Shown here: positions 6,618-63,615 of the stretch, piece by piece | How positions within the stretch are numbered: position 1 is the first letter of the stretch | How the letters are laid out: each line of letters starts with the position of its first letter | IMG/VR virus record: IMGVR_UViG_3300040815_002027 | Source: a virus | Length of the DNA: 64,000 nucleotides | Strand: one strand, 5' to 3' | Position numbers and translations under genes: made by a program | Notes under the pieces: generated by a model | Told to the model about the DNA's origin: nothing | Databases searched by the model: none | The model's input: only the letters and a program-made list of their open reading frames with translations

Positions 6618-9600
6618 ATGGCAAATTCTAATTTACCTCCTATAGACGAACTTAAACAACTGCTAGAAGATCTTCGTAACTATTCTAGACAAGGTCCTAC
6701 TTCTTTTAATAGAGTTAAAAGAGAAGTAGAAGGTATTGTTACAAAGATGTCTCAGATGGCAGGCATACCTAAAGAGCAGTTAAAAGACTTAGGAGAGCTG
6801 ATAAGTAGGTATGAGCAGATAGAAGATGCAATTAATGATATTAACACCGCTAATAGAGGATCTAATAGAGCTTTAGCCGATCTAATTAGAAAATTAAATA
6901 GTTATGCACAACAATCTGCTGCTATTGTAGAGGGGTTAGAACAGTCAGAAGGTGTTTATGCGAAAATATTAAAGTTATTAGAAGAGCAGACAGACGAAGT
7001 GAAAGAACAACAGACTATAGAAGAAAAGGTAGAAAAAACAAAAAAAGGTAATTTTGAAAAACTAATAAAAACAAAAGGAATACTAGAACAGACCAACAGA
7101 ATATTAAATATTCAGATAAGCGAACAAGATAGAATATTAGATGCTATTGCAATATCTGAAGGGAGTTACTCTGAGCTATTAGGTTATCTTGAAGGTATGG
7201 GGGAATCTGCTAGTAAACTTTTAGATACTATAACAAGTCAAAGTGATGTATATGATGATAATGTAGATGCAGTAAAACAGTTAGTGGACAACACTAAACT
7301 CTCTTTAATGCTTCAAAAACAGCAATACTATATACATTTAAAATATAATGATATATTAGAGGATTCTAAGAGAGACGTTAGAGACATGTATACTAAGTAT
7401 GCTATGATATCTAACTTAATTCCTGTAATAGGACAGAGGCTATCTAAAGCTTTTATGAGAGCTAATGCTATTGCCGAAGAAGCATTAGATACAGCCTATA
7501 ACACTTTTTTAGAAACAGGAAATATTTTTGAGTCTGCTAACCAAGGGTTAAATGTTTTAACCAGAGGTCTTGGAGGTATAGGAACAGCTTTTACAGCTTT
7601 TGCTTTAATTATGGCAGGAGTGTATAAGCTATTTAAAGGTATTGACCAAAAAGTTGGCGAGATTGCAGAAAGAACAGGTTTATCAGCAGATCAGTCTTAC
7701 ATCCTATACAAAAACTCATTACAAACACAAACAGCTTATGCTAATCAGTACTCTTCTTTAGAAGATATATTATCTATACAATCACAACTAGTTTCAGAAA
7801 CTGGTAAACAGTTAAACTATACTGAATCTTTAATAGGCAAAGTATCAGACATGTCTGTAGTATTTGGCTATAGTGCTGATACAGCAGGTAAACTTCATAA
7901 TACTTTTTTACAGTTAGCTGGAGCTATGCCTATGAAAGACGCTGAAGAGTTGTCTACTAAGATGCAGTATATGTTAGGTTCTATGGCTGAGGCTAACGGT
8001 ATTGCTCCAGGAATAGTTGCTAAAGACTTAGTAGATAACTCAGAGTTTGTTGCAAGGAACTTTGCTGGTATGCCTGAAAGGGCTATGAGAGCTGCTGTTG
8101 AGGTAAGAAAGTTAGGATATTCACTTGCTCAAGCAGCTAAAGTATCCGAGCATTTGTTTGATATACAAGGAAGTTTAACTTCTCAGATGGAAGCTTCTGT
8201 TGCTTTAGGTAGGTTAGTGGATATGAATGCTGCTAGGCGTTATGCTTTAGAGGGCAAGACTGGTAAGATGATGGAGGAGGTCTCTAAGCAAGTAGGAAGT
8301 TATGCTGAATTTACTGAGATGACTGTACCTCAGAGAATCCTTCTTGCTAAAGCAGCAGGTATGGAGGTCTCAGAACTACAAAGAAGTTTATATATACAAA
8401 AAGAACTAGGACACTTATCTACAGAAGAGCGAGAGAAGATAGCAAATAACTTAAAAGATGTAGAGGGGATAACTGATATGAGTGCAGATCAGTTAAAGAT
8501 AGCTAGTAAACAGGTAAATAAAACTAAAGAGTTTGATAATGCTATTCAGAAAATAAAGATGGCATTAGTAGAAAGTATACTACCTATAGCTGAAACTTTA
8601 GTTCCTTTATTTGGCACGTTAGCTAAAATTATAGGTGTTTTACTCTTTCCTTTAAAGGTTATGAAATTTGTATTTGAGTCTATGAGTTTTGTAGTCAGAT
8701 TTTTAGCTGATAGTTTAAACGAAATAACTGGAGGTGCGATAGGATCTTTTTTCAGTAGTATACACCAAACTCTTATAGGTTGGGATAATACTATATCAAA
8801 CTTATCTTCTAATACAAATAATTGGATCAAAGGACTTGTGGGAGGGATTGGTCTTGTTATGGTAGCTTTTAAACCTCTTAGAAGTATGCTATTTAGTATC
8901 TTAAATCCTAAAACATATGTTAAGGGTTTTAGTAAACTAGGAGGTCTTTTAGGGACGCTTGGTAAAAAAGGAAAAGATGGAAAGACTGGTGGGTCAAGTT
9001 CTTATTTATCTAGTATTTTGTCGAATACTAAGTTAGGTAAATTATTTTCTGGTACTAAAATAGGGAAGTTAGTTGGGGATACTATAGATTCTGGAGGTTT
9101 AGCAGACAGTGCTAAGTCTCAATTAGATGTTCTAATAGAGATAAGAGATTTAATTAAGGATTGTTGTCCAGGTAGTATTGGATCTGGTATAGAGGAAACT
9201 ATGACCCAATTACTGGATGATAAAGGTAGGCCTATATCTAAAGACTCAAAAGGGGTTACTGAAAGGACACGACCAACAAGACCGAGTGGTAGGGACATAG
9301 CAGATTCTCCCACAACAGGAAGAAGAAGAACGGCTCCTAGAGCAAGAGTAAGAGCTAGAAGTGCTTATAGGGGAGCTATGAGAGGTGCTAGACGTTTAGG
9401 AGGAAGAGGTTTAGGCCTAATAGGAGCTGCTTCTACAGCATCTTCTATTATACCTAAAGGATCTTTGTCTAGGATAGCTGGTGCTAGTAAGGGTTTATTT
9501 TCTAAAGTAGCCGATGCAGGAAAAGGTTTATTTTCTAAAATAGGTAAAGGAAGTATGGGTCTTATGGGTGGTACAGGAGGTCTTACTGGTATTTTAGGTA

Positions 9601-20616: not shown

Positions 20617-23370
20617 ATGTCGTACGATAAATATTATTGGCTTAATGATGATGCAAGAACTTTCTTATCAAGAGGGTATATACAAGAATCTGCCGAAGAA
20701 AGAATTAAGGAAATAGCAGATGCTGCTGAAAGATTATTAGGTATCCAAGGGTTCTCTGAAAAGTTTGAAGACTATATGTCAAGAGGTTTTTATAGTCTTT
20801 CTACTCCTGTGTGGGTTAATTTCGCTAAAGATAAAGGACTGCCTATAAGTTGTTATGGCTCCTATGTTGATGATAGTATGGATTCTATGTTAGATGTTAC
20901 AAAAGAGATTGGAATGATGTCAAAATATGGAGGAGGAACTTCTGCTTATTTAGGTGATATACGGCCAAGAGGTGCTTCTATAAGAACTGGCGGTAAGGCT
21001 GATGGACCAGTACATTATGCTAAACTTTATGATACTGTTATAGATGTGTGTAAACAAGCTGAAGCAAGACGAGGTGCTTGTGCTGTATACTTACCCGTAG
21101 AACACGATGATATTTTGGAATTTTTAGATATTGCCACAGAAGGTAATCCTATTCAAAATTTACAGTATGGAGTTACTGTTGGAGATGAGTGGTTACAACA
21201 TATGAAAGATGGGGATTCCTATAAGAGAAAAGTTTGGGCGAAGATTATACAAAGAAGAGGAGAGATTGGACTTCCTTATATTATGTTCAGAACTACAGCT
21301 AACCTTAATACTCCTTACAAGTATTTACCTTATACTATAAAAGCGTCTAATCTATGTTTAACTTCTGATCAAAGGGTTGTTACCTCAAAAGGGTATTTAA
21401 CAGTACAAGAACTCTATGAAAGTGAGGAGGAGCTAATTTTGTTTGATGGAGAGAAAGAAGTTAAAGCATCAAAAATGTTATTAAGGGATGATAATTCAGA
21501 AGTTCTTAAAATAACTTATTCAAATGGAATGTCTCAAAAAGTAAGTCCTAATCACGGAATAGCTGTGTTAAATGATACTAAAAAAGATATAGTAAGAGTA
21601 GAGGCTAAAGATTTAAGAATAGGAGATTATGTTGCTACTCAAACTAATAAAGGTATCTTCGGAACAGTAGATATGAAAGATGAAGCATTTTTATTAGGAT
21701 TATATCAAGCAGATGGAACACAGCATAAAGATTCGATTATGATTGATATATGGGAAAATGATTTTGATTTAGTAGATGAAATCCAAGAAAAATTTAATAA
21801 AATACATTATGAATATGGTTGTGATACTTATCAAGTAGTTAATCAAACGGGCAAAACTAATTCTGTAAGAAAAAGAAAACCAGCTGAGTTCGTTGAGTGC
21901 TGTACTAACCAATCTACAGTTAGAAAGAAACGATTAACTTCAAGAACTTTAAAAAAAGCATTAAACTTTGAAAAAGGGTATGTTCCATCTTGGGTATGGG
22001 AGGCTAATGAAGAGACTGTATGGTCATATTTAAGAGGTCTTTTATATGCAGATGGTACAGCAAATTTAGGAACTTCTAACGGTAATCCATTACAAATAAG
22101 TTATGCTTGTATCAACAGAGGCTTTTTGGAAGAATTACAAGTATTATTTACAAATTTAGGACTCTCTTCTTCTATAAAAATATTAAGACATGCAGGAGAA
22201 ACTTTATTGCCTGATGGTAAAGGTGGTCATAAATATTATAATACTCAAGATTGTTGGCGATTAATATTTTCAAATAAAAATGATGCTTTAAAAATAGAAG
22301 AAAAAACATCTTTCCTAACAAGAAAAGGTGTGGTTATAGAGTCAAGAGATTACAGAGATAATTCTAAAAAAAGAGCAAAGGTAATATCCATAGAAAAATT
22401 AGAAAATGAACCAGTATACTGTCCGACTGTTTATACTGATGAGCATATTTTTGTTTCAAATGGGTTGAAAACTTTTAATTGTTCGGAGATAATGCTCCCT
22501 TCAGATGATGATGTATCTTTTGTTTGTTGCATAGGATCTATAAACTTACTACATTGGGATGAGATAGAGAAAACAGATGCTGTAGAAACCTATGTTTATT
22601 TTTTAAATGCAGTAATGGATGAGTTCATACAAAAGGCTTGGGATTTACCAGGAATGAAGAAAGCTCATAGATTCGCAAGAGAACATAGGGCAATAGGTGT
22701 AGGAGTTTTAGGGTATCACTCTTTACTTCAGTCTAAAAATATAGCTTTTGAGTCCTTACAAGCAAAGCAATACAATCATAAGATTTTTAGTACATTAAAA
22801 GAGCGTACAGATAAGGCTTCTCAAGATTTATATATGTCTATGCCTACAAAGTATCAATGTGTTAGAGATGGATATGCTAACTCTACTTTAATGGCTATTG
22901 CTCCTACAAAATCAAGTTCTTTTATTTTAGGTCAAGTATCTATGGGTATTGAGCCTATTAAGTCTAATTACTTCGTAAAAGATTTAGCAAAGATAAAGAC
23001 TGTATATAAGAATCCTTTCTTAAAAGCAGAGTTAGAAAAGTATAGTTTAGATACCGAAGAAGTTTGGGATAGCATTCTTAAAAAAGATGGATCCGTACAG
23101 CACTTAGATTTTCCTACAAAAGAAGTGTTCAAAACTTTTGTAGAGATTTCTCCAAAGGAAATAATTTTACAAGCAGCACAGAGGCAGAAGTATATAGACC
23201 AGTCTCAGAGTTTAAATTTACAAATACACCCTTCAATACCTGCTAAAGATATTAATCAACTATATTTATATGCTTGGGAGGAAGGTATCAAAACTCTGTA
23301 CTACCAGTTTAGTCAAAACTCTGCACAAATGTTTTCAAGAAATATTTTAGAATGTGTAAGTTGTGAGTAA
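20617..23370 (+). CDS. nrdA: Ribonucleotide reductase class I alpha subunit with intein
   Basis: STPV..N, PISC, SNL[intein]CSEI, APTKSSS, IDQSQSLN, KTLYY, C-terminal CVSCE. Confidence 0.93.
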   Translation: MSYDKYYWLNDDARTFLSRGYIQESAEERIKEIADAAERLLGIQGFSEKFEDYMSRGFYSLSTPVWVNFAKDKGLPISCYGSYVDDSMDSMLDVTKEIGMMSKYGGGTSAYLGDIRPRGASIRTGGKADGPVHYAKLYDTVIDVCKQAEARRGACAVYLPVEHDDILEFLDIATEGNPIQNLQYGVTVGDEWLQHMKDGDSYKRKVWAKIIQRRGEIGLPYIMFRTTANLNTPYKYLPYTIKASNLCLTSDQRVVTSKGYLTVQELYESEEELILFDGEKEVKASKMLLRDDNSEVLKITYSNGMSQKVSPNHGIAVLNDTKKDIVRVEAKDLRIGDYVATQTNKGIFGTVDMKDEAFLLGLYQADGTQHKDSIMIDIWENDFDLVDEIQEKFNKIHYEYGCDTYQVVNQTGKTNSVRKRKPAEFVECCTNQSTVRKKRLTSRTLKKALNFEKGYVPSWVWEANEETVWSYLRGLLYADGTANLGTSNGNPLQISYACINRGFLEELQVLFTNLGLSSSIKILRHAGETLLPDGKGGHKYYNTQDCWRLIFSNKNDALKIEEKTSFLTRKGVVIESRDYRDNSKKRAKVISIEKLENEPVYCPTVYTDEHIFVSNGLKTFNCSEIMLPSDDDVSFVCCIGSINLLHWDEIEKTDAVETYVYFLNAVMDEFIQKAWDLPGMKKAHRFAREHRAIGVGVLGYHSLLQSKNIAFESLQAKQYNHKIFSTLKERTDKASQDLYMSMPTKYQCVRDGYANSTLMAIAPTKSSSFILGQVSMGIEPIKSNYFVKDLAKIKTVYKNPFLKAELEKYSLDTEEVWDSILKKDGSVQHLDFPTKEVFKTFVEISPKEIILQAAQRQKYIDQSQSLNLQIHPSIPAKDINQLYLYAWEEGIKTLYYQFSQNSAQMFSRNILECVSCE
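21355..22479 (+). mobile_element. Intein (375 aa) with LAGLIDADG homing endonuclease in nrdA
   Basis: Starts CLTSDQRV, ends KTFN followed by C; FLLGLYQADG and YLRGLLYADG motifs; excision restores SNLCSE. Confidence 0.92.
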
Positions 23371-52723: not shown

Positions 52724-54010
52724 ATGAACTACTATAAGATAAAAAGAAAACAAGTAAAGCGTGATGCTGAAGAATCTTATTACTACGGCACTTCTATAGT
52801 ATATAGGATGTATCCTAATAAGAAGCAGGAGGAGTGGTTAACTGAGATAGGCAACAAATGTCGGGGAGCTTATAACAAACTGGTAGAAGAGTTCTGCCAA
52901 AATCCAGATAAACCCAGGAACTTACCTGGAACTTCTTTAAAGGAGATTAATAGGCTTAGACATTATTTAAAAGAGTTTGACTGGTTAGATGATGTTCCTT
53001 CTATATTTTTGTATAATGTTTGTAATAATTTTATTAAAGGAGTTGATAACTTTTATACTCAAATTAAAAAGAATAAAAAGATATTAGAGAAAGATCCTTA
53101 TGCTACAGTTAGAAAAACAAGTCCCCCTAAAAAGAAAAAGTCTTATAGAGACCTGCATTTTGGGTCTAATAACTCAACTATAGAAAGAAGCACTGCTATT
53201 GACTATGACAACAATAGATATTATTGTTTTACGAAAACATTAAAAAGATTAGGTATTAGTGATTCTTTTAAGATAAAATGTCACAAGAAGTTTTATAATA
53301 GCAAAATAAAAAGAGTTTCTTTTATGAGGGACAGTTCTATGTGTTGGTATGTGTCTTTTGGTTTGGAGCTTCCGCAAATAGATAGGTATGATAAAATTTA
53401 TGTACCTAAAGATAATAGTTTAGGTATAGACTTGGGTGTAAAAACCGCAGCTACTACTTCTGATGGGGTAAAATTTCACCCTCCAGTAGAGCAGATAAAA
53501 AAGTTGGAGAAGAAGATAGATGTTTTAAATAAAGTTATTAGCAGGAAACAAAGATTAGATAAAAAGAATTACTGGAAGAGTAATAACTATAGTAGGGTGT
53601 TGGAGAAGAAGTACAGAATACAGAAAAAGATAAATAACATAAGAGCTAATTATAACGAGTATGTATCTCATGTTCTTACCAAAGGAGAGTATAATAAGAT
53701 TCAGATGGAAGATCTTAAGTTAAATTTTATGGTAGAAAAAAGGAAGAAGAAGTTTGGTATGAGTAGATCGGCAACTCGTTTAGGTTTGGGAAGTTTAACT
53801 AATAAGATAAAATCTAAATCTCAGGTAAGAGGTATAGAGTTTAATAAAATAAATCCTGCAAACACAACTAAGTATTGTAGTAATTGTGGACATATAGAGA
53901 ACAGTTTAACTCTTAATACAAGAGAGTGGACGTGTCCTAGATGTGGTGTTGACCACGATAGAGATATAAATGCTGCAAAAAATATTCAAAAAAGTTTGGA
54001 TATTAGATAA
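52724..54010 (+). CDS. tnpB: CRISPR-associated TnpB/Cas12f-like RuvC nuclease (428 aa)
   Basis: YRMYPNKKQ..CR..YN (OrfB HTH), RuvC-I GIDLGVK, RuvC-II MEDL, CSNC/CPRC Zn finger, RuvC-III DRDINAAKNI; array starts 240 nt downstream. Confidence 0.92.
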   Translation: MNYYKIKRKQVKRDAEESYYYGTSIVYRMYPNKKQEEWLTEIGNKCRGAYNKLVEEFCQNPDKPRNLPGTSLKEINRLRHYLKEFDWLDDVPSIFLYNVCNNFIKGVDNFYTQIKKNKKILEKDPYATVRKTSPPKKKKSYRDLHFGSNNSTIERSTAIDYDNNRYYCFTKTLKRLGISDSFKIKCHKKFYNSKIKRVSFMRDSSMCWYVSFGLELPQIDRYDKIYVPKDNSLGIDLGVKTAATTSDGVKFHPPVEQIKKLEKKIDVLNKVISRKQRLDKKNYWKSNNYSRVLEKKYRIQKKINNIRANYNEYVSHVLTKGEYNKIQMEDLKLNFMVEKRKKKFGMSRSATRLGLGSLTNKIKSKSQVRGIEFNKINPANTTKYCSNCGHIENSLTLNTREWTCPRCGVDHDRDINAAKNIQKSLDIR

Positions 54011-54026
54011 AAGGTTTGTAGATTTA
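53995..54026 (+). promoter_or_regulatory. Putative Bacteroidota-type promoter for guide RNA and array
   Basis: TTTG(53995)-N20-TAGATTTA(54019), one mismatch to TAnnTTTG. Confidence 0.5.
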
Positions 54027-54049
54027 CGATCTAAGTAAGTTCATTGAAA

Positions 54050-54250
54050 TAATCGCCCGTGTGTAGCGGGTTTAAAGGCTTGCAGATATAGCGTCAACCC
54101 CTTCTTTGCTACGCAAGTGGTAAAGTCGCTCAAAATCTTTCTTTAAAATGAAAGCGAGAGGCCGAGAGGACGCTAGGCGGCTAATGTCGAAAGACATAAC
54201 GTGTGAGAACACACGAAATATCTTTTAAATTGTAGCCTTTGTATAGTTAG
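54050..54250 (+). ncRNA. omegaRNA-like / tracrRNA-like scaffold with 3' anti-repeat
   Basis: Locally GC-enriched; stems TAGCGTC/GACGCTA, ATGTC-GAAA-GACAT, CGTGTG-AGAA-CACACG, AAAGGCT/AGCCTTT; 54216-54235 complementary to the repeat. Confidence 0.75.
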
Positions 54251-54921
54251 GGTGTATACCACCACAATTTGAAAGGTGTTTACAACTAATGTTAGACAAA
54301 AAAATAAGTATAGCTTGGTATATAGCACCACAGTTTGAAAGGTATTTACAACGGAAACTTAGGTTACCTACTATCTGCTGAAGGTGTATACCACCACAGT
54401 TTGAAAGGTATTTACAACGAAAACTTAGGTTACCTACTATCTGCTGAAGGTGTATACCACCACATTTTGAAAGGTATTTACAACCAAATGAAGAACGATG
54501 CACAATAAGATGTAGGTGTATAGCACCACAATTTGAAAGGTGTTTACAACAGATCTAAAAGAAGAAGCAGAAAAACTTTCAGTGTATACCACCACAATTT
54601 GAAAGGTATTTACAACTAGTACCTATAGTATCAAAGTTAAATCAGAGGTGTATACCACCACAGTTTGAAAGGTATTTACAACTTATGTTATGAAGGTAGT
54701 ACTCCTTATATTGGTGTATACCACCACAATTTGAAAGGTATTTACAAACGGTGTCTCTTTAGCATCATAATTTTAAAACTGTTTACAACATAGCGACATC
54801 AATGTCGTTACCATAGATGGCTGTATACCACCACAATTTTAAAACTGTTTACAACATAGCGACATCAATGTCGTTACCATAGATGGCTGTATACCACCAC
54901 AATTTTAAAACTGTTTACAAC
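54251..54921 (+). CRISPR. CRISPR array: 11 repeats of 36 nt (GGTGTATACCACCACAATTTGAAAGGTATTTACAAC), nine 30-nt spacers (7 distinct) and one collapsed spacer
   Basis: Repeats start at 54251, 54317, 54383, 54449, 54515, 54581, 54647, 54713, 54754 (degenerate), 54820, 54886; 66-nt period except R8-R9. Confidence 0.97.
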
Positions 54922-54938
54922 ATTAAAAAATCAAAGTT

Positions 54939-55334
54939 ATGAAAAGAATTAGTTTAGTTTTAGTATTACTGTTATCAGCATATCTTGGGTATTCACAAAA
55001 AGGCCAGGATATTGTCTCTTTAGAAGAGATCTTAGAAACTATAAACACTGGCTTGGAAGATCAAGCCTTTGAAAAATTACGGCAAGAAGCACACTCCAAA
55101 GAAGATAACGTTATCTTTAATGTAAAGTATCTATATCCTAATGTATGTTACAGACAACTAATAACTAAAGCAACAGGACAGAAGCTTTATATACAGGTAG
55201 CTTGTGATGCTATACACGCTAAGAATGGTCTTACTTTTAAAGAAGAAGAGGCGTATGAAAGATACCAGTTTCTTATAAAGAACAAACGTAAATTTGATAG
55301 ATTAGATAGAAGAATAGAAAGAATGCACAATTAA
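54939..55334 (+). CDS. Secreted hypothetical protein
   Basis: Signal peptide MKRISLVLVLLLSAYLGYSQ; starts 17 nt after the last repeat. Confidence 0.65.
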   Translation: MKRISLVLVLLLSAYLGYSQKGQDIVSLEEILETINTGLEDQAFEKLRQEAHSKEDNVIFNVKYLYPNVCYRQLITKATGQKLYIQVACDAIHAKNGLTFKEEEAYERYQFLIKNKRKFDRLDRRIERMHN

Positions 55335-55352: not shown

Positions 55353-55380
55353 GGAGAGGTAACTACTGCCTCTCCTTTTT
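55353..55380 (+). terminator. Rho-independent terminator
   Basis: GGAGAGGTA-ACTAC-TGCCTCTCC followed by T5. Confidence 0.8.
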
Positions 55381-58248: not shown

Positions 58249-58376
58249 AAATAAAACAAAAAGAATGTTACGATGAAAATTAATACGAAGATGAAACGTA
58301 GCATTGCATATAACTGTTTGTTAATCCAATATGCTTCTGGCTATGTTTTGCAACTATTTATTAATAAAGTAAAGGT

Positions 58377-58871
58377 ATGAAAGATTCGAGAAAGCTTTTA
58401 GTAACCATTGCAAGAGGGTATTTAAATGAAAATATTGAAGATTATTCAAAATGGAAACGTAAAAATGTAACTTTGCGTGGAATGAAAGAATTAGGTAAAG
58501 CAAATGAAGTATATGGTTCTTTTGGAAAAGGATTATATACAGTACCTTTAAGTAATAAAGCAATGGCAAAACAATATGGTAAAATATATTTTGTTGTAAA
58601 TGGGATACCAAGAAAACCAAAAATTGTTGATTCATTAAATAATGCTGAATTGTTAAGACAAAAATTAATTAATGATTTTTGTAAAAAACATAACGAAGAT
58701 TATAGTCCTCGTTTTTTTGAATCAAATACAACTATGGAAGATGAAATGTTAAAGTTGGGTTATGATGGTCTTATAATAAAAGGTAGAGAGATGGTTAACT
58801 ACACCCCAAAGGATATTAAATATTTTAAAAATGAAAATGATTTACAACGTTACTATGAAGCACTTTCATAG
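58377..58871 (+). CDS. Putative ART-fold protein sharing its N-terminal leader with 57706
   Basis: MKDSRKLL.TIA.GYL.E leader; LRG, FG.GLY, A.QYG..Y, GYDG.II...E.V.Y. Confidence 0.5.
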   Translation: MKDSRKLLVTIARGYLNENIEDYSKWKRKNVTLRGMKELGKANEVYGSFGKGLYTVPLSNKAMAKQYGKIYFVVNGIPRKPKIVDSLNNAELLRQKLINDFCKKHNEDYSPRFFESNTTMEDEMLKLGYDGLIIKGREMVNYTPKDIKYFKNENDLQRYYEALS

Positions 58872-58949
58872 TATTGGTGCTAAATTATTACTTAACCCAA
58901 TCTCTAAAAGCATCTATTTCGATGCCTTTAAAAATTAAATAAAAAAGTT

Positions 58950-59537
58950 ATGAAAATAGTAGAAAACACAGTTACAGCCATTATGGTTATTTTTGTTTTG
59001 GTATTTCTTTATTTCTTTATGTCTGCCCAAAAAAGTGTGGGAGAAGAACCTAAAACAGAACAAGTCTCTCACGATGTCATTCTAAATTCTGTGCGAGAAG
59101 TAATCTCCCTAACAGTAATAGAAGCAAACTTTACAGAGATATATACTAAAGAAGACTATTGGAAGTTAGATCTATCTCCTTTCAGAAAGAAGATGGTAGT
59201 TAAAGTAAAAGCTAATGTAGGTATAGGGTATGATCTAAATGAGTTATATATAGATGTAGATAGAGAATCTAAAACTATATTAGTATTAAGAATGCCTTCT
59301 CCCAAACTTTTGTATATAGATGATACATTGGAGTATTTTGATATATCTGAAGGATATTTTAATTGGTTTGACCCAGGAGATTACACAGAGATAGACAGAG
59401 AGACAAGAGATAAGATAGAGTCTATGGTAACTAATAGTAGTCTTTTTACTGATGCAGACATAAAATTATTTGAAAATTTAAAAATAATTCGTAACTTAGC
59501 ATCCGAGATGGGATGGACAGTAGTTATAAAGGATTGA
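58950..59537 (+). CDS. DUF4230-like membrane-anchored protein
   Basis: N-terminal TM; A.V..G.DL, .P.P.L. Confidence 0.7.
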   Translation: MKIVENTVTAIMVIFVLVFLYFFMSAQKSVGEEPKTEQVSHDVILNSVREVISLTVIEANFTEIYTKEDYWKLDLSPFRKKMVVKVKANVGIGYDLNELYIDVDRESKTILVLRMPSPKLLYIDDTLEYFDISEGYFNWFDPGDYTEIDRETRDKIESMVTNSSLFTDADIKLFENLKIIRNLASEMGWTVVIKD

Positions 59538-59567
59538 TACTCTCGTTTATATTTATAGTAAAAGCTA

Positions 59568-60062
59568 ATGAAACTTACAAAACTTTTAGAGACAGTTAGG
59601 GAAGATTTCGTAAATGAAGATATTAACCGTGATAAGTCAAGGAAAGTGTTGTTTGTTGATGGACACGGGAAACAAATTGTTTACGATGATGGTGCTTTTA
59701 GGATTGCTGTTGATGATAAAGATGATGCACTATATGTAACTTTATGGCATAAAGAAGATGTGAAAGGTAAAGAGTATTGGGTTAAACGTGGGTACATAGA
59801 TGCTTGGAAGAGTAAAATGAACTTTAAAGATAGAAGTGGTACTTATTTATCTATTCGTTCAATAGAAATTGAGAATAAATATAGAAATAAGGGGTACGGC
59901 ACAAAGTTATACAAAGCTCTATTTGATTTTTCAGCAAATGATGTTAAAGGTGTTTATTCTTACTTACCAAATAGGGTTAATAAAAAACAAGTGCCTAAAA
60001 TATATAATAAATTAGGTGCTATTACTGATGGTGATTACCAATTTATTGAGTTTAGTAATTAG
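59568..60062 (+). CDS. GNAT acetyltransferase
   Basis: YRNKGYGTKLY acetyl-CoA motif, Y.KLG. Confidence 0.75.
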   Translation: MKLTKLLETVREDFVNEDINRDKSRKVLFVDGHGKQIVYDDGAFRIAVDDKDDALYVTLWHKEDVKGKEYWVKRGYIDAWKSKMNFKDRSGTYLSIRSIEIENKYRNKGYGTKLYKALFDFSANDVKGVYSYLPNRVNKKQVPKIYNKLGAITDGDYQFIEFSN

Positions 60063-60110
60063 TGATAAAACAAAAGTATTTAAAATATTAATTAATTAAA
60101 AGTTACAAAA

Positions 60111-62059
60111 ATGAATTACAAAGGTTTTGATGTACAGATTGAGATTAAGCAGTACAAAAATGGGGGAGATGCTATCTATCTAATAGATAAGCAGGACCAT
60201 TCACCAGTAGCAGTAGCAACAAGTTGGATTGAAGGTTTAGAACCTGATGAGTTAGCCATTAAAGATTATAGTGAGAATGAAGGTATATATAGATGGTTAG
60301 TAGACAATAATATTGTTACTCCATCCGTTAGAATGCTTTATGGATTTCCTATTTGTAAATTAGTTAACAATTAAATAAAAAAAGTTATGGAAAAGCAAAT
60401 TAAAAACTTAATCGAATTAGCAGAGCAGTATTACCAATATGCCATAGAAGAAGATTTCCCAAGTGGACACACCTGGTTACAGACAGACTATGGGGAGGTT
60501 GGGGTATACTTATCCACTTACAGTAGAAGAGATTACTCAGTGAAATTCGATGGCGAAGTGGAGGTTGCAGGATATGCAAATAGAATAGCAATGGGATTTA
60601 CTGCCACTTCAGAAACTTTAGAGAAATTATATAATAACTTTTCAAAATATCTTAAAACTGAAAAAGATAAGATTCAAGAACAAGTAGCAGTCCAAAGAGC
60701 TGAGAAGATAAAAAATTTGGAAGAAGAACTATCAAGATTAAAAAACTTATGAATAGGTTCACTTTCTTAAAAGTCTATAACTCTCCATTTAAGCCATTCC
60801 TACCTAAGTTATATATAGGTAGGATGACTATTGGAGTACCTTACTTTTATTCTCGTAAAAAAGTAGGGTTTGACCTTGTAGGCTTAGGTTATAAGACAAA
60901 GTGGTCAGATACTGACTATAGGTTCGAGTATAATCCTATATGGTCATTTACATTTTATAAGTGGCAGATTGCTTTAATCTTTGCACCTATTGAATGTAAC
61001 TATTATTGGCAGGCTTGGTTGTACTACTTTTACAATACTAAAGGTACGAAGGAAGAAAGGATAAGAGAATGTAAGAAGGAGTATCCACTTAAAATTACAG
61101 TAAGTGGTGTAAAGGATGGGAGGAGGTATGAGTATAGTTACGATGCGTATGATAAAGTTTTAAAATCGTAAAAATTATGGAAAACGAAGAAGTAAAAAAC
61201 AACGAAAAATATTCAATACCAATCTATGAGAATGGTGTGAAAACTGAATGGACTATTGATGGTGTAATAGGTGATGAAAAATATTTTGAGTTGTTGAAAT
61301 ATGGAAATGGTAAAGATTTACCTGATATGGTTAATGTTGGCGTAAAGAAATAATTTTTATATTTTATAACTTTTTGTTAATTCAAGTTTTTAAACATAAA
61401 ATTATGGAAAGAAATATAAGCGAAACACCCGAAAAATGGGTAATATTAAAACTACCAAATAATTACTATAAAGTTTTTGGAACTTGGGCTGGTGGTTATT
61501 TATATGGTGACAGATATAGATTAAATTCTGGAATTAGTAAAGTAGAACAAGACGAAAACTTTTATTATTTTATTGGATTTAGTGGAAGTTGCTATAAGTG
61601 TCACAAAAAAGGATATGGAACAGCGACATCTTACGGGTTAGGTGTTTTAAATAAAATAATAGAACAAGGAAACGGACAGATTGAGTTAATGGAAGATGCT
61701 GACGATTGGATAAATGTGGTATAACTATTTATTAATTAAAGTTTTAAACCTATCGAAATCGATGCCTTTAATAAATTACTAACAATTAAATTTTTAAAAT
61801 TATGAAAATGTATTATTACAATCCAAACAATTATAGTGCTGAATTTTTCGTTATGGCTGAAAACAAAACAAAAGCACATGAATACTTATTAAAACATTTA
61901 GAAAATAAGATTGTATCTGAAAGTTGCTATGCTGAGATGTATCAAGAAGATTTAGAAATATGGAAAAAAGTAAATCCCTTGGATATTAAAACATTTCCAG
62001 GTAAATATACTTTGGATGAACATGAAATTGGTTCAGTTATCGAATCTGAAATTGCTTAG
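60111..62059 (+). CDS. Six small hypothetical ORFs (60111, 60387, 60749, 61177-61353, 61404, 61802)
   Basis: + strand ORFs with A-rich leaders, several followed by the AACTATTTGTTAATCCAAG repeat. Confidence 0.6.
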
Positions 62060-62154
62060 TGGTTGCACTTTCGTAGCATTGTGTATAACTATTTGTTAAT
62101 CCAAGGTTTTAAACCCATCGAAATTAAGGGGTTTGTAAATTAAAAACAGATAAA

Positions 62155-62460
62155 ATGGAATTAAAAAGAGTTATTGAAACATTAGAAAAACATCAAGAGT
62201 GGAGGCGTGACCAAAACGTACCACCAAAAGTAGAAATGCAAAGCCCTATTGAAATAGGAGCAGCTATTGATTATGCAATAAGCGAGTTAAAAAAATTGCG
62301 TTTATCTGATGTTGTAAAATCGTTGCCTAAAGACACAGACGGATGCAATATAAACAGTGTTAGCAACTATTTTCACTGCCAAAGAGAAGAAGAGATGGAA
62401 AGTAAATGTCAAACACAATGTGAACACTGTAAAGAATATTACAAACCATTAGAGCAATAA
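62155..62460 (+). CDS. Hypothetical mosaic protein spanning GTT junctions
   Basis: ORF; internal GATGTTGTA and AGTGTTAGC read as DVV and SVS. Confidence 0.55.
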   Translation: MELKRVIETLEKHQEWRRDQNVPPKVEMQSPIEIGAAIDYAISELKKLRLSDVVKSLPKDTDGCNINSVSNYFHCQREEEMESKCQTQCEHCKEYYKPLEQ

Positions 62461-62466
62461 TATTAC

Positions 62467-62529
62467 TGCCAACGTTTTGGCTATGTGCCGTATGACGATA
62501 GGAATATGGACATATAGCCGTTGTTGTGC
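62467..62529. repeat. attC-like stem-loop
   Basis: TGCCAAC, 5 nt, GGCTATGTGCCGTAT...ATATGGACATATAGCC (one bulged A), 3 nt, GTTGTGC. Confidence 0.7.
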
Positions 62530-62563
62530 ATAGTAGCGGATTAATTAACTAAAGTTTGAATAA

Positions 62564-62749
62564 ATGAAATTACAATTCTTAACAATCGAAATTGATGGAA
62601 AATGCTTTGACTTACCAAAGGATATGCAGATTCCGCAGAAAGGTAGCACTGTATTTATTGAGGGTAAAACAGGGATAGTTGAAAACATTCACTACCATAT
62701 AGTAGACGGAAAAGTACACATGATAAGCATTTTTGCTACGAAAGGGTAG
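62564..62749 (+). CDS. Hypothetical protein enclosed by 15-bp inverted repeats
   Basis: GTTGTGCATAGTAGC (62523) / GCTATTATGCACAAC (62749). Confidence 0.65.
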   Translation: MKLQFLTIEIDGKCFDLPKDMQIPQKGSTVFIEGKTGIVENIHYHIVDGKVHMISIFATKG

Positions 62750-62804
62750 CTATTATGCACAACTATTTGTTAATCCAAGTTATTAAGATAAAAAACAATA
62801 AAAG

Positions 62805-62966
62805 ATGAAAAAGTACAGAATTACAATTAGAACCAGTTTTGGGTCATTTGAGATTGATGACATTGAAGCACAAGATGAGGATGAGGCATTTGATAAGGCT
62901 TGTGAAGAGGCTAAAAAAGAAATTGATTGTGCAAAACTGGATGAAGTTTATGAGTACGATTCTTAA
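62805..62966 (+). CDS. Small acidic protein (53 aa, not in ORF track)
   Basis: MKKYRITIRTSFGSFEIDDIEAQDEDEAFDKA... Confidence 0.65.
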   Translation: MKKYRITIRTSFGSFEIDDIEAQDEDEAFDKACEEAKKEIDCAKLDEVYEYDS

Positions 62967-63018
62967 TGGTGCATAACGGTACAGTATAACAGTAGTGCGG
63001 ATAATTAAAAACAATAAT

Positions 63019-63225
63019 ATGGATAAGTACACGAAAAAAGCGGTGTTTAGTTACTTAAAGAAGTATGACCACATAGCAAACGAAGAGGACTTTATAGAAG
63101 TTACTGAATGGAAAAACGGTGAAGGATTTGATGTAGAGATAGTTGGAAAATTAAGTACAAGGTTTCAATTAACTTGGGGTGAATACACCGCTTTGAAGAA
63201 GTTGGTTAAAAAACTTGATGGTTAG
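63019..63225 (+). CDS. Hypothetical protein enclosed by 15-bp inverted repeats
   Basis: GTATAACAGTAGTGC (62984) / GCATTACTGTTATAC (63225); EVTEW.NGEG.D motif. Confidence 0.65.
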   Translation: MDKYTKKAVFSYLKKYDHIANEEDFIEVTEWKNGEGFDVEIVGKLSTRFQLTWGEYTALKKLVKKLDG

Positions 63226-63323
63226 CATTACTGTTATACATTGTTGTAGTGTCGTTTTAATGCACTACAACGGCTACAGGTATGGCAATGTAATTTTACG
63301 GATTTGAAACACGGAAATTAATT

Positions 63324-63560
63324 ATGGACAAGATAGATAGATTAAAGCAATTACTTCTGACACACAGAACAGAAGATATAAGCAAATTAACATTTGAAGA
63401 AAGGATTGATTTTGACGATGCGTTTGCACAAGAGATAGTAAAATTATTTGCTATACCTGATGTTATAGAGCCGAAGGGAAAGTTAAAATGCGAATGTAAA
63501 GATGAGTGGATGGAAGATGTTATTTATGTTCAGTGTAGTAAGTGTGGTGAAAAGTACTAA
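63324..63560 (+). CDS. Hypothetical protein with C-terminal Zn ribbon, fused across an IR junction
   Basis: KLFAIPDVI encoded by IR arm plus GTT core; CEC...CSKCG. Confidence 0.6.
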   Translation: MDKIDRLKQLLLTHRTEDISKLTFEERIDFDDAFAQEIVKLFAIPDVIEPKGKLKCECKDEWMEDVIYVQCSKCGEKY

Positions 63561-63615
63561 CGCATTTTAATTCTCTATAACTATTTGTTAATCCAAGTTA
63601 TAAAAATAAGGAACA

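What the first reader, a model, noticed from the sequence alone, without database searches (positions are those of the whole stretch)
54050..54286. Scaffold RNA ends in an anti-repeat 15 nt before repeat 1: a natural single-guide and trans-acting tracrRNA
Seen: 54216-54235 (AAATATCTTTTAAATTGTAG) pairs with the repeat core CCACAATTTGAAAGGTRTTT over 18 contiguous pairs including G-U. Two common repeat polymorphisms (ACAA/ACAG, GTAT/GTGT) are A-to-G changes opposite U, so pairing survives only on the + strand. Upstream stems: CCCGT-GTGTA-GCGGG, TAGCGTC(54089)/GACGCTA(54169), ATGTC-GAAA-GACAT, CGTGTG-AGAA-CACACG, and long-range AAAGGCT(54074)/AGCCTTT(54234). The 5' hairpin followed by AAGGCTTG recalls IS605 omegaRNA starts (from memory). 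Inference: scaffold + repeat 1 + spacer 1 forms a contiguous omegaRNA-like guide, while the same scaffold could pair in trans with downstream repeats.
Basis: partly seen in the sequence, partly recalled or inferred. Interest (0 to 1): 0.85.

Follow-up and report, generated by a model that had tools for sequence, protein, structure and literature searches.

The report
Phage TnpB guide scaffold joined to array
A jumbo phage of Bacteroidota carries a transposon-type DNA cutter (TnpB) whose guide-RNA scaffold is transcribed together with a small CRISPR array and can pair with its repeats, a well-conserved natural example of the recently described step from transposon guides to CRISPR.

Summary
54216-54233 pairs with repeat bases 54264-54281 over 18 contiguous pairs, with 7 of 8 intact repeats on the + strand only. 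The scaffold follows an intact 428-aa TnpB in a jumbo phage and belongs to a phage clade of about 33 proteins; 11 distinct loci were read. The stems and the anti-repeat:repeat helix covary (98% paired, 13 pairs with double changes). All 10 ingroup loci have a Bacteroidota promoter whose -33 box lies in the last tnpB codons, followed by an rRNA-type boxA. In 6 of 7 homologs a 14-16 bp stalk closes scaffold plus array; this window lacks it. In three homologs repeat 1 is cut to a fused 12-13 nt half repeat while the anti-repeat extension fits only downstream repeats, which supports both cis and trans use. Corrections: the RNA probably starts near 54031, the long-range 54074/54234 helix is not conserved, and the repeats are of the type VI-B (Cas13b) family. 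The concept is known (TranC; possibly TranC clade 9), and the scan noted similar layouts on other genomes. Activity, strand, RNA ends and targets are not shown.

The parts
52724..54010 (+). TnpB-type nuclease gene, 428 aa; RuvC D236/E329/D414 and four zinc-finger cysteines invariant; no C-terminal tail after RuvC-III; no tnpA
53995..54026 (+). Bacteroidota housekeeping-type promoter: -33 box (53995-53998, inside the last tnpB codons), 20 nt, -7 box (54019-54026, one mismatch here, perfect in 9 homolog loci); predicted start ~54031
   Evidence: 10/10 loci, spacing exactly 20; box position -12..-5 from PMC9723704
54038..54051 (+). boxA-like antitermination element
   Evidence: conserved in 10/10 loci; a variant of the motif lies in the 16S-23S spacer of Parapedobacter rRNA operons; boxA background PMC13753749
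54056..54070 (+). Stem P1 with invariant GUGU loop; predicted pseudoknot partner of the unpaired repeat end 54282-54286
   Evidence: 4 of 5 pairs with double changes; pseudoknot inferred from PMC10097598
54077..54182 (+). Core domain: P2 (54077-54080 with 54179-54182) and P3 base (54089-54095 with 54169-54175) enclosing a variable insert
54184..54215 (+). Hairpins P4 (54184-54197) and P5 (54200-54215, conserved loop)
   Evidence: P5: 5 of 6 pairs with double changes, 100% paired; P4 present in all 10 loci
54216..54233 (+). Anti-repeat: 7-nt conserved core directly after P5, plus an 11-nt extension
54234..54250 (+). Linker; not conserved (anti-repeat start to end of first unit is 31-82 nt across loci, 71 here)
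54251..54316 (+). Repeat 1 (36 nt, complete) and spacer 1 (30 nt): the cis guide unit
54251..54921 (+). CRISPR array: 8 intact 36-nt repeats, one partial and two degenerate distal repeats, 30-nt spacers; repeat of the type VI-B family
55353..55379 (+). Terminator-like hairpin after the 131-aa ORF 54939-55334; likely end of the transcript (inference)
   Evidence: RNA contig 54894-55324

Best explanation
This is the guide-RNA gene of a domesticated, phage-encoded TnpB-CRISPR system of the TranC kind. Host RNA polymerase starts near 54031. A boxA lets it read through about 900 nt of untranslated RNA, giving one precursor of scaffold plus array. The scaffold folds like an omegaRNA (stem 1, pseudoknot, stems 2-3), but its last stem is built from the anti-repeat and the 3' half of a CRISPR repeat. 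During transcription it meets repeat 1 first and forms a single-guide precursor carrying spacer 1. The 18-bp duplex may then be trimmed by host RNase III into tracrRNA plus crRNA. The same anti-repeat can pair with repeats 2-8 and load their spacers. TnpB then cuts DNA matching the loaded spacer, most likely that of competing phages. Shown: sequence anatomy, covariation, conserved promoter and boxA, intact active site, presence in RNA libraries. Inferred: start site, single precursor at this locus, pseudoknot, processing, cleavage, targets.
For: Covariation of P1, P5 and the anti-repeat helix: 98.3% of cells paired, 13 pairs with changes on both sides, 0/500 shuffles, slid controls 27-43%. P2, P3 and P4 are kept. 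A model of the scaffold found an unseen 29%-identical sister locus, L015 (E 6e-7), with the same layout; it groups with the clade at 98 SH-aLRT in a quick tree. Cis evidence: in L015, L175 and L191 the first unit is only the last 12-13 nt of a repeat, fused 31-32 nt from the anti-repeat start and followed by a normal-length spacer. Trans evidence: in L015, L175, L191 and L182 the anti-repeat pairs better with internal repeats (-8.5 to -15 kcal/mol) than the cis unit folds (-2.6 to -8.1). One precursor: promoter and boxA in 10/10 loci; a covarying 14-16 bp stalk joins the 5' leader to the array trailer in 6 of 7 homologs; metatranscriptome contigs of two studies bridge scaffold and repeat 1 (54066-54305, 54129-54352) and a third covers the scaffold. 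Domestication: single copy, no cas1 and no Y1 tnpA in a complete 309-kb relative; same gene neighbourhood at 59% protein identity; RNA region 270/270 identical in L003 while the gene differs at 52 of 1287 bases.
Against: No spacer target was found. RNA contigs show neither strand, ends nor a single transcript, may include DNA, and the runs were chosen with this region. The window lacks the closing stalk and its -7 box has one mismatch. An equilibrium fold of the whole precursor prefers repeat 8 (0.91) over repeat 1 (0.05), so cis preference rests on folding order. Half repeats could be simple decay of a terminal repeat; in L182 the cis pairing is largely lost. The pseudoknot bases are invariant, so there is no covariation for them. 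Only 10-11 related loci were compared.
Confidence: 0.68

Rival explanations
1. Ordinary dual-guide type V arrangement: the scaffold is a plain tracrRNA that is cut free from the precursor and works only as a separate RNA; its nearness to repeat 1 is just compact gene order, as in Cas12f loci.
For: At this locus repeat 1 is complete, the duplex is a perfect 18 bp and the loop is 30 nt. An anti-repeat between effector and array is the layout searched for in Cas12f and TranC. The equilibrium fold does not favour repeat 1.
Against: Fused half repeats with a 7-8 bp helix and a short loop in L015, L175 and L191 are poor RNase III substrates (own knowledge), yet they keep the terminal five bases and the spacer register. 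In L191 the half repeat carries a change on both sides of a pair.
Confidence: 0.2
2. Cis-only omegaRNA: TnpB uses only scaffold plus spacer 1. The rest of the array is a store of guides that reach the first position by deletion or recombination, or it feeds or decoys the host Cas13b.
For: One scaffold per precursor for about eight spacers. The repeats belong to the Cas13b family. Spacer 1 differs between L177 and L178, which encode the same protein.
Against: The anti-repeat extension matches internal repeats rather than the first unit in four loci, and the internal repeats of L175 and L191 changed together with the anti-repeat. The Cas13b-type repeat hairpin is weaker in the phage repeats (-2.6 to -8.2) than in two of three verified Cas13b loci (about -11; the third is -5.0).
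Confidence: 0.09
3. Chance or relic: the anti-repeat is an inverted repeat fragment, or a decayed IS605 right end with no current role.
For: A 17-bp helix to the repeat occurs by chance elsewhere in the window; the distal repeats are degenerate and some spacers duplicated.
Against: Compensatory changes across loci with about 30-60% protein identity, conserved promoter and boxA, intact nuclease, RNA region more conserved than the gene.
Confidence: 0.03

Closest known systems
TranC transposon-CRISPR intermediates (Jin et al., Cell 2025, doi 10.1016/j.cell.2025.09.004; not held, cited through PMC13565253 and PMC13639567), above all phage CauTranC9 / TranC clade 9 (bioRxiv 10.64898/2026.03.27.714800)
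   Same: TnpB-sized nuclease next to a short array, omegaRNA split into tracrRNA and crRNA, no adaptation genes. CauTranC9 is from a Caudoviricetes genome, its clade averages 414 aa, it lacks the ISDra2 C-terminal domain and has 5 repeats, much like this clade (397-428 aa).
   Different: Clade 9 repeats are given as 38 bp, against 36 here, and no tracrRNA structure is reported for it. The promoter-boxA-stalk unit, VI-B-type repeat and fused half repeat are not mentioned in the passages I read.
IS200/IS605 TnpB with omegaRNA (ISDra2, PDB 8H1J; ISFba1, 8IAZ; PMC10097598)
   Same: Best sequence and fold matches. The omegaRNA is described as a natural single guide with stem 1, a pseudoknot at positions -5 to -3 and a final stem, which the scaffold can mimic.
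   Different: Here the RNA does not overlap the gene, has its own promoter, ends in a CRISPR repeat rather than a transposon end, and there is no tnpA or sign of mobility.
Type V-F Cas12f and Bacteroidota dCas12f-sigmaE systems (PMC13472631, PMC10691335)
   Same: tracrRNA between gene and array; same repeat family in Parapedobacter dCas12f loci and a phage Cas12f-like locus. Fusion of a half repeat to a tracrRNA is already described for that lineage.
   Different: The protein is a separate lineage: it groups with TnpBs, away from L187 and L001, scores far below Cas12f cut-offs, and the scaffold model does not hit their tracrRNAs. The nuclease here looks active.
Type VI-B (Cas13b) arrays of Bacteroidota (PMC8092290)
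   Same: 36-nt repeat, 30-nt spacer, same 3' half; 24/36 identical to the Flavobacterium columnare repeat and 28/36 to another Cas13b-linked repeat. VI-B arrays gain spacers in trans from II-C Cas1-Cas2.
   Different: No cas13b beside the array; the repeat is used 5' of the spacer and paired to a scaffold.

Membership tests
TranC (TnpB-CRISPR intermediate) | TnpB-lineage nuclease of TnpB size with intact RuvC | tested here: met
TranC (TnpB-CRISPR intermediate) | Clade-wide link to a CRISPR array, without transposase | tested here: met
   repeat or array after the gene in all 11 distinct loci read; no Y1 tnpA in relatives
TranC (TnpB-CRISPR intermediate) | omegaRNA-like scaffold split into tracrRNA and crRNA by an anti-repeat | tested here: met
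   covariation; comparative evidence only
TranC (TnpB-CRISPR intermediate) | DNA cleavage guided by both dual RNA and single reRNA-type guide | not testable with these tools
   needs biochemistry; this feature rests on my memory of Jin et al., which is not held
TranC clade 9 (CauTranC9) | Sequence kinship with CauTranC9 | not testable with these tools
   supplement not held; size, phage origin and missing tail agree, repeat length 38 vs 36 does not
IS200/IS605 mobile TnpB-omegaRNA | omegaRNA overlaps the tnpB 3' end and ends at the transposon right end; tnpA, IS ends or multiple copies | tested here: not met
   scaffold starts after the stop codon behind its own promoter; single copy, fixed neighbourhood, no tnpA
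IS200/IS605 mobile TnpB-omegaRNA | Pseudoknot between scaffold 3' end and stem-1 loop | tested here: inconclusive
   three canonical pairs possible in all loci, but the bases are invariant
Type V-F Cas12f | Protein falls in the Cas12f lineage or passes its profile cut-off | tested here: not met
   C2c8 64 bits vs cut-off 350, Cas12f2 46 vs 450, guided_TnpB 194 vs 100; tree; PADLOC Cas12f hits have no cut-off
Type V-F Cas12f | Asymmetric homodimer on one guide | not tested
   no complex prediction run
Type VI-B CRISPR-Cas13b | cas13b effector beside the array | tested here: not met
   ORFs flanking the array are TnpB and a 131-aa protein
Type VI-B CRISPR-Cas13b | 36-nt repeat family with 30-nt spacers | tested here: met

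The most novel reading that the evidence does not exclude
A self-reprogramming single guide. The scaffold sits where a VI-B leader would be, so host II-C Cas1-Cas2 could insert each new spacer behind repeat 1, making the newest spacer the cis guide, while older spacers are served in trans. The unit would be made like a pre-rRNA (host promoter, boxA, closing stalk). The clade would be a living series from fused omegaRNA-like guide (L015, L175, L191) to full tracrRNA (this window) and not yet described.
Probability: 0.2. Interest if true: 0.75.

Novelty: new variant of a known kind. Interest (0 to 1): 0.5.

Why it matters
The split of a TnpB omegaRNA into tracrRNA and crRNA is the proposed origin of type V CRISPR systems. 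This phage clade holds both ends of that change in one family, with natural compensatory variants, so cis versus trans guide use, spacer-1 bias and borrowed spacer acquisition can be tested directly. It also offers about 400-aa nucleases with ready-made short single guides (L015, L175, L191).

Tried and rejected
Rfam gave only unrelated sub-threshold hits for the region and none for three homolog loci. The scaffold model found nothing significant in about 85 generic TnpB loci or the Cas12f-like loci, so no mobile omegaRNA ancestor was identified. Spacer targets: none in the window or 1.4 Mb of loci, INPHARED (best hits are short, E >= 0.02) or IMG/VR. The 41 seed matches for spacer 1 reach at most 23/30 and are chance. 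Ranking by duplex energy was uninformative as a chance test. The long-range 54074/54234 helix was rejected as a core element (3 of 10 loci). The metagenome scan was saturated by generic TnpBs. No whole genome is held. Strict repeat patterns found nothing in genomes; a looser one did. Lack of RNA cover outside 52761-55324 is not taken as evidence. The tree is the quick version; the careful run did not finish. Jin 2025, Tordoff 2025, Stringer 2020 and Smargon 2017 were not held. Array polarity is unresolved: distal decay here and the L177/L178 difference point to a scaffold-side leader, but L175, L182 and L191 decay from the scaffold side.

Full report
Setting. The window is part of a jumbo phage: by inspection of the ORF lists it encodes tail-sheath-like, ribonucleotide reductase, polymerase and RecA-like proteins, and ThyX is confirmed by Pfam. 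At 52724-54010 lies a 428-aa protein with HTH, OrfB_IS605 and TNB domains. It passes the NCBIfam guided_TnpB cut-off and no Cas12f cut-off. Its RuvC residues D236, E329, D414 and zinc-finger cysteines are invariant. Its closest solved relatives by sequence and fold are ISDra2 and ISFba1 TnpB (model pLDDT 74). An array of 36-nt repeats and 30-nt spacers runs from 54251 to 54921.

Observation. Bases 54216-54233 pair with 54264-54281 over 18 pairs. The pairing is complete with 7 of 8 intact repeats on the + strand and broken at 2-3 places on the - strand. The region folds better than all 200 shuffles (z -3.67). A 17-bp helix to the repeat also occurs by chance elsewhere in the window, so the proof comes from homologs.

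The family. Searches gave a sharply bounded clade of 32 further proteins (37-95% identity; 544 bits or more, next hit 181). I read ten distinct ingroup loci, and every one has scaffold, anti-repeat and repeats after the gene. On their alignment P1, P5 and the 7-bp anti-repeat:repeat helix are 98.3% paired, 13 of 18 pairs show changes on both sides, no shuffle reaches this, and slid controls give 27-43%. The conserved partner of 54077-54080 is 54179-54182, with a covarying third pair; the long-range helix to 54234-54240 appears only here, in L004 and in L005. A covariance model of the scaffold found one unseen locus among 97 sources, L015, whose 417-aa protein is sister to the clade. It found nothing significant in generic TnpB or Cas12f-like loci.

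Transcription unit. In 10 of 10 loci a -33 box sits in the last codons of the gene, exactly 20 nt before a Bacteroidota -7 box. With the box at -12 to -5 (PMC9723704) the start falls near 54031. This fixes the + strand as the likely one and points to a Bacteroidota host. Next comes a 14-nt motif (54038-54051); three of its seven matches in two Parapedobacter genomes lie in 16S-23S spacers, and it resembles the boxA consensus, which is also known upstream of CRISPR operons (PMC13753749). In six of seven homologs with a full array, 14-16 nt overlapping and following boxA are the complement of a segment just after the last repeat, with different sequences in different loci (0-1 of 100 shuffles). 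That closes scaffold and array into one molecule, like an rRNA processing stalk (inference). The window lacks this stalk; its array decays into a gene followed by a terminator-like hairpin at 55353-55379. Metatranscriptome contigs cover 54066-54305, 54129-54352 and 54081-54254 in three studies. They fit a contiguous RNA but cannot show strand, ends or level.

Cis and trans. The distance from anti-repeat start to the end of the first unit ranges from 31 to 82 nt (71 here), so 15 nt is not a family constant. In L015, L175 and L191 the first unit is only the last 12-13 nt of a repeat, joined by a short loop and followed by a spacer in register: a natural single guide. In these and in L182 the anti-repeat continues with bases that fit only the full downstream repeats, and the trans duplex is the stronger one. 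Both modes therefore appear selected in the family; half-repeat loci are scattered on the tree and include the outgroup (quick tree). At this locus the cis duplex is long and perfect, with a 30-nt loop, so trimming by RNase III is plausible. Equilibrium folding of the whole precursor does not prefer repeat 1; a cis bias must come from folding order. In every locus the last five repeat bases stay unpaired, and positions -5 to -3 can pair with the invariant P1 loop, the same geometry as the ISDra2 pseudoknot (PMC10097598). This is inferred, without covariation.

Origin of the array. A loose repeat pattern hits 98 genome stretches, nearly all of those listed from Bacteroidota. Many lie beside 1,100-1,250-aa ORFs, and three of five tested are Cas13b. 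The same repeat family serves Parapedobacter dCas12f loci and two other phage RuvC lineages, so the direct donor is not known. A complete 309-kb relative has one tnpB, no cas1 and no Y1 tnpA. In F. columnare the VI-B array gains spacers from II-C Cas1-Cas2 at the leader where transcription starts (PMC8092290), which here is the scaffold side. Spacer 1 differs between L177 and L178, but other loci decay from that side, so polarity is open. No target was found; an anti-phage role is inferred from other phage systems.

Comparison and verdict. TnpB-array associations arose about 50 times (PMC12669027). TranC systems split the omegaRNA into tracrRNA and crRNA. A phage TranC of like size is active and could be this clade. 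Half-repeat fusion is described for dCas12f. Earlier notes of this scan report similar layouts on other genomes. The system works like a TranC and meets the testable membership features; it is not a mobile IS605 element, not Cas12f and not VI-B. What looks new is the combination: VI-B-type repeats, a promoter-boxA-stalk unit, and a natural series from fused to split guide. Interest 0.5; new variant of a known kind.

Noticed in passing
L005:6224-6239 with 6713-6728; L181:1916-1931 with 2465-2480; also L095, L180, L182, L191: A covarying 14-16 bp helix joins the sequence at and after boxA to the sequence after the last repeat, just before the terminator; it resembles an rRNA processing stalk. 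Absent in the window; no such run found in L175.
   Followed up: partly
window 53995-53998: The conserved Ser-Leu at the end of the protein (S424, L425) coincides with the -33 promoter box, so the constraint is probably on DNA.
   Followed up: partly
L187:11978-14036 and L189; L186/L342: Two other jumbo phages carry different RuvC proteins (a 501-aa Cas12f-like one and a TnpB-like one) with a boxA-like motif, their own non-coding region and arrays of the same VI-B-type repeat family.
   Followed up: partly
L001:333-5055; L002: Parapedobacter loci with a sigma-factor-like gene, a 364-aa dCas12f-like gene and several tracr-like units interleaved with arrays whose repeat is close to this phage's.
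   Followed up: partly
window 54353-54448 and 54749-54921: Spacers 2 and 3 are near duplicates; the distal end has a partial repeat, two degenerate repeats that lose three anti-repeat pairs, and a duplicated spacer.
   Followed up: partly
window 20617-23370: The ribonucleotide-reductase-like ORF (917 aa) has an internal stretch that looks like an intein with a homing endonuclease (by eye).
   Followed up: no
window 58297-63613: A family of 26-38 nt AT-rich repeats lies in intergenic positions (D3, D7, D9), possibly a phage promoter or recombination motif.
   Followed up: no
L315:857-4129; L266:2024-5455: 1,091-aa and 1,144-aa ORFs beside VI-B-type arrays have no NCBIfam hit at 1e-5; the L315 repeat is the closest genomic match (30/36) to the window repeat.
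   Followed up: no
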